Assembly (NCBI GenBank): GCA_964496765.1 | Contig: CAZCAP010000002.1 | Location: forward strand, 60,001-92,000 | Direction: 5' to 3' | Source of the DNA: an uncultured archaeon | Lineage (GTDB): Archaea; Iainarchaeota; Iainarchaeia; Iainarchaeales; CSSED10-239 | Length of the DNA stretch: 32,000 nucleotides | In this document: one piece after another, positions 6,210-7,526 of the stretch | How positions within the stretch are numbered: position 1 is the stretch's first letter | Layout of the letters: each line of letters starts with the position of its first letter | Position numbers and translations under genes: made by a program | Notes under the pieces: model-generated | Told to the model about the DNA's origin: nothing | Seen by the model: only the letters and a program-made list of their open reading frames with translations | The model's database searches: none

Positions 6210-6674
6210 CTATCTTTTACTTATCGTAAAATCCCTACTTATTTGTTTTTTAAGAGTATCAATTTTGTTGGTTATATTAGATATAGTGGATTTTATAATA
6301 TCCACTCTTCTCCTATATTCTTCATACATTTTATATTCGTGTGTTCTTGTTGTACTTGTTTTAGAATTTGTGACTTGCTTATTTAATTGTTTTATATATT
6401 TATCTAGTTTTATACTACTATCCTTTAATTTCTTACTTAATTCTAGCTTATATTGCCCTAATCTTATAATTGTTATGTTTGTTTCCTGTACGTGTTGCTT
6501 TATCCATCTTTTTTTAGACTGTATTTCATTTTTTGTGGTTGTTGCATCTATGTTTTTTTCTTCAAATAATTTTTCTGTTTTTGCTTTTATACTATTAACC
6601 TTTCTATTAAAATTATTTCCCCCTAATTTAAATCTTATCGCTTTTAATGCTATAAATCCACCTTTTCTTAATAA
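6210..6674 (-). other. start-less 154-codon open frame continuing in the recombinase frame directly after its TAA stop
   Basis: I checked every in-frame triplet from 6674 down to the TAG at 6212-6210 and found no stop. The only canonical starts are an ATG at 6329 and a GTG at 6305, both near the end. The translation is coiled-coil-like (..KLELSKKLKDSSIKLDKYIKQLNKQV..). GGTGGA lies just before an in-frame ATA at 6653-6651. Confidence 0.4.
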
Positions 6675-7526
6675 TTATATATTGTCCAACGGGTTTTTAA
6701 TTTCTTTTAATTTATTAGTGTTTACTTTTGTGTATATTTGTGTAGTATTAAGATTAGCATGTCCTAATAATTGTTGTATATATCTTATGTTTACATCATT
6801 TTCTAAAAGCGCGGTTGCAAACGAGTGCCTTAGCTTGTGTGGACTAACCGCTTTATTAATTCCTGCTTTTTTTGCAGATATTTTTAAAAATTTTTGAACC
6901 GTATCTGGAGATAATGTGGATCCCTCTTGATTACAAAATAAGTATTCTGATTTTTGTTTTTTCTCTCTTTCTTCTAAATATTTTTTATAATCAACAACCC
7001 AATTTTTAGATAGTATTATTATTCTATCTTTATTTCCTTTACCAGAAACCACTTTTCCTGTATGCTCATTAAAATCAAGATCACTTATTTTCATATTTAT
7101 ACATTCTGATATTCTAACTCCTGTTGAAAACATAAATTCTATAATTAGTTTATTTCTTTGGCTGCTTGTTGCATTAATTAGATCTTTGATTTCCTTTGGG
7201 GTTAGGGTAATTGGTATTTTATTTGATTTTTTAGGGAGCTTTATATTTAGCTCAAGTGGAGTCCTTAGAAATTCAGAATAAAAATGTTTAAGTGCAGATA
7301 ATATTAGGTTAAGGGTAGCAGAACTAACTCCTTTTTTTGATTTAAGTTGTGATAAAAAATTAACAACATCATCTGATTTAACCTCTCTTAGATCTTTTTC
7401 AATGTATTTTTGAAATATTCCTAGATACATAGAATACGTTTTTATTGTTTGCTCACTAAATCCCTCTATGTTTAATTCATTTTTGAATTTCGTTATTAAT
7501 TCTTCGTTTTTAGTATTTACTTCCAT
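6675..7526 (-). CDS. tyrosine recombinase, XerC/XerD/XerA-like
   Basis: There is an N-terminal SAM-like domain (FSEQTIKTYSMYLGIFQKY). The catalytic set is TGVRISE, HKLRHSFAT and LLGHANLNTTQIYTKV (R..HxxR..H..Y). ATG 7526 is preferred over the track's TTG at 7535. Confidence 0.9.
   Translation of the reverse strand: MEVNTKNEELITKFKNELNIEGFSEQTIKTYSMYLGIFQKYIEKDLREVKSDDVVNFLSQLKSKKGVSSATLNLILSALKHFYSEFLRTPLELNIKLPKKSNKIPITLTPKEIKDLINATSSQRNKLIIEFMFSTGVRISECINMKISDLDFNEHTGKVVSGKGNKDRIIILSKNWVVDYKKYLEEREKKQKSEYLFCNQEGSTLSPDTVQKFLKISAKKAGINKAVSPHKLRHSFATALLENDVNIRYIQQLLGHANLNTTQIYTKVNTNKLKEIKNPLDNI

What the first reader, a model, noticed from the sequence alone, without database searches (positions are those of the whole stretch)
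6210..6677. A 154-codon open frame continues in the recombinase frame directly after its TAA stop and has no usable start codon
The recombinase ends ..KNPLDNI-TAA (stop at 6677-6675), which is a normal Xer C-terminus about 20 aa after the catalytic Tyr. Reading on in the same frame, I found no stop in any in-frame triplet until the TAG at 6212-6210. The product is K/E/N-rich and coiled-coil-like (LLRKGGFIALKAIRFKLGG...KLELSKKLKDSSIKLDKYIKQLNKQV...). The only canonical starts are an ATG at 6329 and a GTG at 6305, both near the 3' end. At the stop density of AT-rich DNA, an open stretch this long is unlikely to be non-coding. Possible explanations are TAA read-through giving an extended recombinase isoform, a non-canonical start (an in-frame ATA at 6653-6651 lies 4 nt after GGTGGA), termination-reinitiation coupling, or a recently decayed gene.
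Basis: seen in the sequence. Interest (0 to 1): 0.6.

Follow-up and report, generated by a model that had tools for sequence, protein, structure and literature searches.

The report
Ordinary gene whose ATG became ATA
The long open frame after the recombinase stop is a separate small coiled-coil gene that starts with ATG in every relative but has ATA here, so gene finders miss it; it is not an extended recombinase.

Summary
After the XerA stop (TAA, 6677-6675) there are 154 sense codons up to TAG at 6212-6210. Chance probability is about 1e-7.

The frame is the syntenic orthologue of a small, fast-evolving coiled-coil gene of unknown function. I call it "cc" (147-166 aa). It sits between xerA and a PRC-barrel gene in a few small archaeal (DPANN-like) genomes.

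- **Start codon:** In all 7 related loci the gene starts with ATG, 18-22 nt after the xerA stop, mostly behind a GGTGAT ribosome-binding site. Here the aligned codon is ATA (6653-6651), and GGTG is kept 5 nt upstream.
- **Not an error:** The ATA appears in six public assembly records of this one near-clonal population.
- **Read-through rejected:** In 3 of 7 relatives the gene is in another frame than xerA. Two of them have extra stops in the spacer. XerA is already complete at its stop.
- **Real gene:** dN/dS is 0.09-0.22 among close relatives. Neutral drift to the observed 34% identity would have left about 8 stops.

I could not decide whether the gene is still weakly translated from AUA (about 0.5) or is a very young start-loss pseudogene (about 0.4).

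Interest is low. Other first readers of this scan flagged the same stretch before.

The parts
6675..7526 (-). xerA, archaeal tyrosine recombinase (283 aa from ATG 7526; stop TAA 6677-6675)
   Evidence: NF040815 recomb_XerA_Arch scores 279 bits against a cutoff of 220. Pfam Phage_integrase E 1e-49. It is 87% identical to the same-genus orthologue. Relatives end at the same position with TAA, TAG or TGA.
6654..6674 (-). 21-nt spacer with the Shine-Dalgarno core GGTG at 6662-6659, 5 nt before ATA
   Evidence: It aligns with the AAAGGTGAT-TTT-ATG context of relatives. In this genome 92 of 631 long ORFs have GGTG 3-9 nt upstream of a canonical start; 14 of them have the same 5-nt spacing.
6651..6653 (-). 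ATA at the position of the orthologues' ATG start codon
   Evidence: Column-for-column alignment with the same-genus genome G001. All 7 relatives have ATG. ATA is identical in 8 loci from 6 assembly records.
6210..6653 (-). cc gene: 147 codons plus TAG; predicted helical-hairpin coiled-coil protein, orphan family
   Evidence: It is 33-35% identical, almost without gaps, to 147-166 aa ATG-initiated proteins at the same syntenic position. AlphaFold2 gives helices 14-96 and 105-142 with pLDDT 86. There is no Pfam, NCBIfam, PHROG, PADLOC or PDB family match.
6210..6329 (-). 39-aa ATG ORF, the only piece that gene callers annotate here
   Evidence: It is called as a 39-aa product in public assemblies (L010) and is present as P0004 in the protein collections.
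6178..6219 (-). Left arm of a conserved inverted repeat (core ACCCCAC-GA-TTCCTCTA, 6209-6193), starting right after the cc stop
   Evidence: the repeat finder pair I1: 42 nt, 74% complementary. In relatives without cc the same motif follows the xerA stop by 5-30 nt.
5634..6008 (-). PRC-barrel gene (124 aa), the conserved downstream neighbour
   Evidence: Pfam PRC E 6e-7. Weak match to PDB PRC-barrel chains 8qzo and 8onw. It is 89-93% identical in relatives.
5527..5568 (+). Right arm of the inverted repeat (core ACCCCACACTTCCTGTA, 5537-5553), just upstream of the next gene's ATG on the - strand
   Evidence: These two arms are the only intergenic copies of the motif in the 738-kb genome.
6265..6897 (+). 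210-codon mirror ORF on the opposite strand (not a gene)
   Evidence: It is a hydrophobic antisense shadow of the K/E/N-rich coding frames and overlaps both xerA and cc. Selection (dN/dS 0.09-0.22) is seen in the - strand frame.

Best explanation
The frame is an independent gene, not a continuation of XerA. It is the orthologue of a small SD-led, ATG-initiated coiled-coil gene (cc) that follows xerA in the same transcription unit in a narrow group of DPANN-like archaea. In this population a G-to-A transition changed the start codon ATG to ATA. The SD core, the spacing and all 147 codons stayed intact. That the gene lies in frame with xerA is a coincidence of a 21-nt spacer. Shown: orthology, synteny, the ATG/ATA column, the retained SD, fixation of ATA across assemblies, purifying selection in the family, and non-conservation of the frame relation. 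Inferred: if the protein is still made, the ribosome binds the GGTG site and initiator tRNA pairs imperfectly with AUA. That would give roughly a hundredfold less product than ATG, so the gene would be a weakly expressed hypomorph. I put about 0.93 on the structural core (separate gene, ATG to ATA). The confidence of 0.5 below is for the full statement, including continued translation from AUA. Function is unknown; a role linked to chromosome resolution or cell division is only a guess from its neighbours.
For: All 7 syntenic relatives start with ATG 18-22 nt after the xerA TAA, and five of them have GGTGAT 4 nt upstream. ATA 6653-6651 aligns exactly with that ATG, and the proteins align from residue 1 with no gaps over 142 aa. 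Synteny RNR-CobO-HD-XerA-cc-PRC-TFIIEalpha-Trm56 is conserved. dN/dS is 0.09-0.22 within the G001 clade. Neutral drift to 34% identity gives a mean of 8.2 stops, and 0 of 300 runs stay open. ATA is identical in 6 assembly records, one of which differs by a SNP at 7560. GGTG 5 nt upstream is a spacing used by 14 other genes here. This is the only SD-led long frame in the genome that lacks a canonical start. A start-codon hit makes up only 7 of 84 (8%) single-substitution knock-outs, so a lone lesion there fits a tolerated down-mutation slightly better than random decay. AUA initiates at 1-2% (0.1-3%) of AUG in E. coli (10.1101/063800).
Against: ATA is seen in only one near-clonal population (at least 99.9% identical), so its persistence over evolutionary time is not shown. 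The gene is dispensable: it is absent from most genomes of the family. The window copy has diverged far more than expected, with cc 34% identical where XerA is 88% and HD 67%, while another lineage with the same XerA and HD distances keeps cc at 70%. This could reflect relaxed constraint. Archaeal aIF1 is reported to discriminate against non-canonical starts (PMC6237735). No tRNA with anticodon UAU was found, and aragorn found only two CAU tRNAs.
Confidence: 0.5

Rival explanations
1. Young pseudogene. The same separate gene, but the ATG-to-ATA change effectively silenced it. The frame is still open only because too little time has passed for stops or indels to accumulate.
For: The gene is accessory and often absent in the family. 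G-to-A is the expected mutation in a 29% GC genome. The window copy is unusually diverged (dN about 0.63 against 0.17 for a lineage at the same XerA and HD distance). The SD is two bases shorter than in relatives (AGGTG against AGGTGAT). No ATG-initiated full-length protein of the window type exists among 1.8 billion representatives. AUA is a very poor initiator.
Against: There is no second lesion in 147 codons, although 77 single substitutions could make a stop and there are four A-runs of 6-7. The bulk of the divergence cannot be neutral. A similar burst of divergence occurs between two relatives that both keep ATG (L022 against L024: cc 51% where HD is 91%), so acceleration does not indicate death. 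The SD core and spacing are retained.
Confidence: 0.4
2. TAA read-through produces a C-terminally extended XerA-cc fusion isoform.
For: The two frames coincide here and in 4 of 7 relatives, with no stop in the 18-21 nt spacer.
Against: In L022, L024 and L026 the spacer is 19 or 22 nt, so cc is in another frame. L022 and L024 have further stops in the spacer. All relatives have their own ATG, most with an SD. XerA is complete against its model. Orthologous XerA genes end at the same position with TAA, TAG or TGA, mostly with no cc gene behind them. TAA is the commonest stop in the genome (616 of 938 long frames).
Confidence: 0.02
3. Termination-reinitiation coupling. Ribosomes finishing xerA re-start on the nearby AUA without a fresh initiation, which could tolerate a non-AUG codon.
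For: cc follows xerA by only 21 nt on the same strand with no room for a promoter. The short spacing (18-22 nt) is conserved.
Against: In Haloferax volcanii and E. coli, coupling drops 40-80% at +14 nt and is nearly abolished at about 20 nt (PMC10666635). The SD in most relatives points to independent initiation.
Confidence: 0.05
4. Sequencing or assembly error at 6651; the true base gives ATG.
For: It is a single base in a metagenome-assembled genome.
Against: The 591-nt stretch including ATA is identical in records from ENA (3), Logan (1) and JGI (2). One of these is a haplotype with a different base at 7560.
Confidence: 0.01

Closest known systems
Near-cognate AUN start codons in bacteria (E. 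coli infC and pcnB with AUU; own knowledge) and measured AUA initiation (10.1101/063800)
   Same: An SD-led gene whose first codon differs from AUG at the third base. Initiation there is possible but about 1-2% as efficient.
   Different: The infC AUU is conserved and autoregulatory. Here ATA is a change private to one lineage, all relatives have ATG, and no regulation or translation is shown. The host is an archaeon with aIF1/aIF2-type start selection.
Start-codon-loss pseudogenes
   Same: A canonical start is replaced by a non-start codon, and annotation pipelines drop the gene or call a 39-aa remnant.
   Different: There is no second lesion, the SD is retained, and the frame was maintained through heavy divergence.
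Programmed stop-codon read-through (recoding in archaea, reviewed in PMC8211752)
   Same: An open frame continues in phase behind a stop codon.
   Different: The phase is not conserved, the downstream frame has its own start in relatives, and the upstream protein is complete.
CdvA and the CdpB PRC-barrel cell-division proteins of archaea (10.1101/2023.03.28.534520)
   Same: A coiled-coil element sits next to a PRC-barrel module. CdvA fuses a PRC barrel to a coiled coil, and here a coiled-coil gene lies directly upstream of a PRC-barrel gene.
   Different: There is no sequence or significant fold similarity to CdvA. The order is reversed (coil first) and the genes are separate. The cc gene is absent in most relatives that keep the PRC gene. 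This is a lead only.

Membership tests
Archaeal XerA (upstream gene) | Score above the curated cutoff of the equivalog model, full-length match including the C-terminal catalytic region | tested here: met
   NF040815 scores 279 bits against 220, covering residues 13-276 of 283 and model positions 2-262 of 263.
Programmed read-through extension | The downstream frame is in phase with the upstream gene across relatives, with no intervening stops | tested here: not met
   3 of 7 relatives are out of phase, and 2 have extra stops in the spacer.
Programmed read-through extension | The downstream frame lacks its own initiation signals | tested here: not met
   All 7 relatives have ATG, and 5 of 7 have a GGTGAT SD.
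Gene with a functional near-cognate start codon | The non-canonical codon occupies the homologous start position behind a ribosome-binding site at working distance | tested here: met
   ATA is in the ATG column. GGTG lies 5 nt upstream, a spacing shared with 14 genes in this genome.
Gene with a functional near-cognate start codon | The non-canonical codon is conserved over evolutionary time with the frame kept intact | tested here: inconclusive
   It is seen only in one population that is at least 99.9% identical. No other window-type allele exists in the databases.
Gene with a functional near-cognate start codon | Evidence of translation from that codon | not testable with these tools
The organism is uncultured.
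Pseudogene | Disabling lesions beyond the start codon (stops, frameshifts, truncation) | tested here: not met
   147 codons are open and the alignment to orthologues is gapless over 142 aa.
Termination-reinitiation coupled gene pair | Overlap or an intergenic distance of at most about 10 nt | tested here: not met
   The spacer is 21 nt here and 18-22 nt in relatives. The criterion comes from PMC10666635.
Any described protein family for cc (Pfam, NCBIfam, PHROGs, PADLOC, PDB) | A significant profile or fold match | tested here: not met
   Only sub-threshold coiled-coil noise was found. The best Foldseek E-value is 0.2.

The most novel reading that the evidence does not exclude
AUA is a genuinely used start codon in this DPANN-like archaeon. 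The ATG-to-ATA change would then be a tolerated or even selected way of turning a fast-evolving xerA-linked coiled-coil protein down about a hundredfold, and a natural case of AUA initiation in an archaeon.
Probability: 0.12. Interest if true: 0.4.

Novelty: new member of a known kind. Interest (0 to 1): 0.2.

Why it matters
Mostly for annotation. Public pipelines call nothing here, or only a 39-aa remnant, so a clade-specific gene is invisible in this genome. It is a clean example of how one G-to-A change in an AT-rich reduced genome creates an "ORF without a start" that can be mistaken for read-through. The case also defines a tiny orphan protein family: 5 hits among 1.8 billion representatives. 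The family occupies a variable slot between xerA and a PRC-barrel gene. It does not open a new question about recoding.

Tried and rejected
- **Homologue search with the window protein alone:** the word-based search found nothing. Relatives came only from six-frame genome search and pattern scans.
- **Read support:** I used independent public assemblies instead.
- **Systematic non-canonical initiation in this genome:** rejected. Most long frames without early canonical starts are antisense shadows. The SD-anchored scan finds only this ATA.
- **Alternative genetic code:** rejected. XerA orthologues stop at the same place with all three stop codons.
- **Function by sequence or fold:** no family in Pfam, NCBIfam, PHROGs or PADLOC. 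PDB sequence hits are designed coiled coils. Foldseek gives only generic helical hairpins, with Vipp1/PspA best at E 0.2. JGI's name "CorA" for relative P0002 looks like coiled-coil noise.
- **Rfam on 5300-6800:** no match.
- **dN/dS for the window copy itself:** uninformative, because dS is saturated at about 1.
- **K-rich ORF behind xerA in G016 (L038):** not demonstrably homologous (hhalign probability 1%). The one in G014 (L047) probably is (89%).

Full report
**Observation.** On the - strand the recombinase gene ends with TAA at 6677-6675. The same frame then stays open for 154 codons until TAG at 6212-6210. The only canonical in-frame starts are ATG 6329 (codon 116) and GVG-type GTG 6305 (codon 124). 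The local composition gives a stop probability of 0.0995 per codon, so P(154 open) is about 1e-7. None of 200,000 shuffles stayed open. The 210-codon ORF on the + strand (6265-6897) is the hydrophobic mirror image of the K/E/N-rich coding frames.

**Host and neighbours.** The window lies in a 738-kb, 29% GC, 86%-complete genome. The neighbours include TFIIE-alpha, Trm56, a class II ribonucleotide reductase, an HD hydrolase and a PRC-barrel protein. The closest species is labelled "MAG: archaeon". This is a small DPANN-like archaeon. The recombinase is XerA: NF040815 scores 279 bits against a cutoff of 220 and is matched to the end of the model. It therefore needs no C-terminal extension.

**What the frame is.** A six-frame search of relatives found a 34%-identical match in the same-genus genome G001, inside a 172-codon open frame.
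- There the gene starts with ATG 18 nt after the xerA TAA, behind AAAGGTGAT.
- A DNA alignment puts the window's ATA (6653-6651) exactly in the ATG column.
- The proteins align from residue 1 without gaps over 142 residues.
- Pattern scans and exact-protein look-ups gave six more loci (L006, L008, L009, L022, L024, L026).
- All share the gene order RNR-CobO-HD-XerA-cc-PRC-...-TFIIEalpha-Trm56.
- All start cc with ATG 18-22 nt after the xerA stop.

**Read-through.** The phase with xerA is not conserved. In L022, L024 and L026 the spacer is 19 or 22 nt, and L022 and L024 carry additional stops in it. Across 19 further genomes of the family, XerA ends at the same position with TAA, TAG or TGA. 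In most of them it is followed directly by the PRC-barrel gene with no cc gene at all. The in-phase arrangement here is an accident of a 21-nt spacer.

**Termination-reinitiation.** Experiments in Haloferax volcanii and E. coli found coupling nearly abolished at about 20 nt (PMC10666635). The SD in most relatives also points to independent initiation.

**Is ATA real?** Exact look-ups of the neighbouring proteins returned contigs from ENA, Logan and JGI assemblies.
- The 591 nt around the gene are 100% identical in every contig that covers them.
- ATA is present in 8 loci from 6 records.
- One record differs from the window at position 7560, so it is not a copy of the same consensus.
- All are at least 99.9% identical overall, so this is one near-clonal population. 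An error is excluded, but no evolutionary depth is gained.
- Gene callers on these assemblies call nothing here or only the 39-aa ATG ORF (P0004).

**Is it a real gene?** Within the G001 clade, cc has dN/dS of 0.09-0.22, compared with 0.04-0.09 for xerA. The family is tiny.
- An exhaustive HMMER search of 1.8 billion representatives gave 5 hits, all 147-166 aa apart from the window's 39-aa remnant.
- Only genus g1 matched among 196 genomes of the order.
- A probable remote member sits behind xerA in G014 (hhalign probability 89%).

The family evolves fast and in bursts.
- The window copy is 34% identical to G001-type proteins where XerA is 88%, HD 67% and PRC 90%.
- L026, at the same XerA and HD distance, keeps 70% identity.
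- L022 and L024 are only 51% identical in cc although HD is 91% and both have ATG.

So acceleration is not specific to the ATA allele. A neutral simulation from the G001-type sequence to 34% identity gave a mean of 8.2 in-frame stops, and 0 of 300 runs had none. The divergence therefore took place under selection for an open frame.

**Alive or dead?** GGTG is retained 5 nt before ATA. 92 of 631 long ORFs in this genome have GGTG 3-9 nt upstream, and 14 have the 5-nt spacing. An SD-anchored scan of the whole genome finds this ATA as the only long frame without a canonical start nearby; the two other rows of that scan start on a GCA codon. Non-canonical initiation is therefore not a habit of this organism.

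Only 7 of 84 single-substitution knock-outs (8%) hit the start codon. A lone lesion there fits a tolerated down-mutation slightly better than random decay. Against that:
- The gene is dispensable in the family.
- AUA works at about 1-2% of AUG in E. coli (10.1101/063800).
- Archaeal aIF1 is reported to discriminate against non-canonical starts (PMC6237735).
- No UAU-anticodon tRNA was found.

I put about 0.5 on weak translation from AUA and 0.4 on a very young pseudogene. The tools for reads and transcripts were unavailable.

**Protein.** AlphaFold2 with an 8-sequence alignment predicts two long helices (14-96 and 105-142) forming a hairpin, with pLDDT 86. Foldseek against the PDB gives no hit at E of 0.001 or better; the top rows are generic hairpins such as Vipp1/PspA, prefoldin and Rad50 coils. 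No Pfam, NCBIfam, PHROG or PADLOC family matches. The neighbour is a PRC-barrel protein. Such proteins act in archaeal cell division, and CdvA fuses a PRC barrel to a coiled coil (10.1101/2023.03.28.534520). Together with XerA this suggests a division- or segregation-linked role, but that is only a guess.

**Verdict.** This is an ordinary separate gene with a mutated start codon. It is not recoding. Interest is low.

Noticed in passing
window 5527-5568 (+) and 6178-6219 (-): A 42-nt inverted repeat (74% complementary; core ACCCC-N4-TTCCTGTA) brackets the PRC-barrel gene and its promoter. The left arm starts right after the cc stop. The right arm lies in the 5' leader of the next gene and overlaps its SD. 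These two arms are the only intergenic copies of the motif in the 738-kb genome. Most of the roughly 25 related loci carry both copies (a few lack one in the held sequence), and the left copy sits 5-30 nt after the xerA stop when cc is absent. PRC orientation relative to xerA never changes, so no inversion is seen. Function is unknown: an operator pair, long-range RNA pairing or a recombinase site are all possible.
   Followed up: partly
window 6516-6519: Contigs of two or three other assemblies (L014, L015, L019) end at the same point inside the cc gene, next to an A7 run. All assembled sequence is identical to the window. This may be a graph branch from a co-existing strain with a different cc allele.
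   Followed up: partly
L005:3647-4201 (also L006, L008, L009): The G001 clade carries a second, unrelated 185-aa K/E-rich coiled-coil gene between cc and the PRC gene. It is absent from the window's genome and from L022 and L024. The xerA-PRC interval is a hot spot for gain and loss of small coiled-coil genes. G016 (L038) has yet another non-homologous K-rich ORF there.
   Followed up: partly
genome contig C7 36943-37806 (-), outside the window: A 287-codon open frame has its first canonical start only at codon 64. It looks like an integrase-type protein. It could be another start-codon problem or a split gene.
   Followed up: no
window 7560: This is the only difference between the window and assembly ERZ27248895 over 6.8 kb (T against C). 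It lies in the last codons of the HD gene, inside a 20-mer repeat that other readers flagged.
   Followed up: no
whole genome: aragorn finds 37 tRNAs. Only two have anticodon CAU, and no tRNA-Ile (GAU or UAU) is found. This probably reflects incompleteness of the assembly or intron-containing tRNAs.
   Followed up: no
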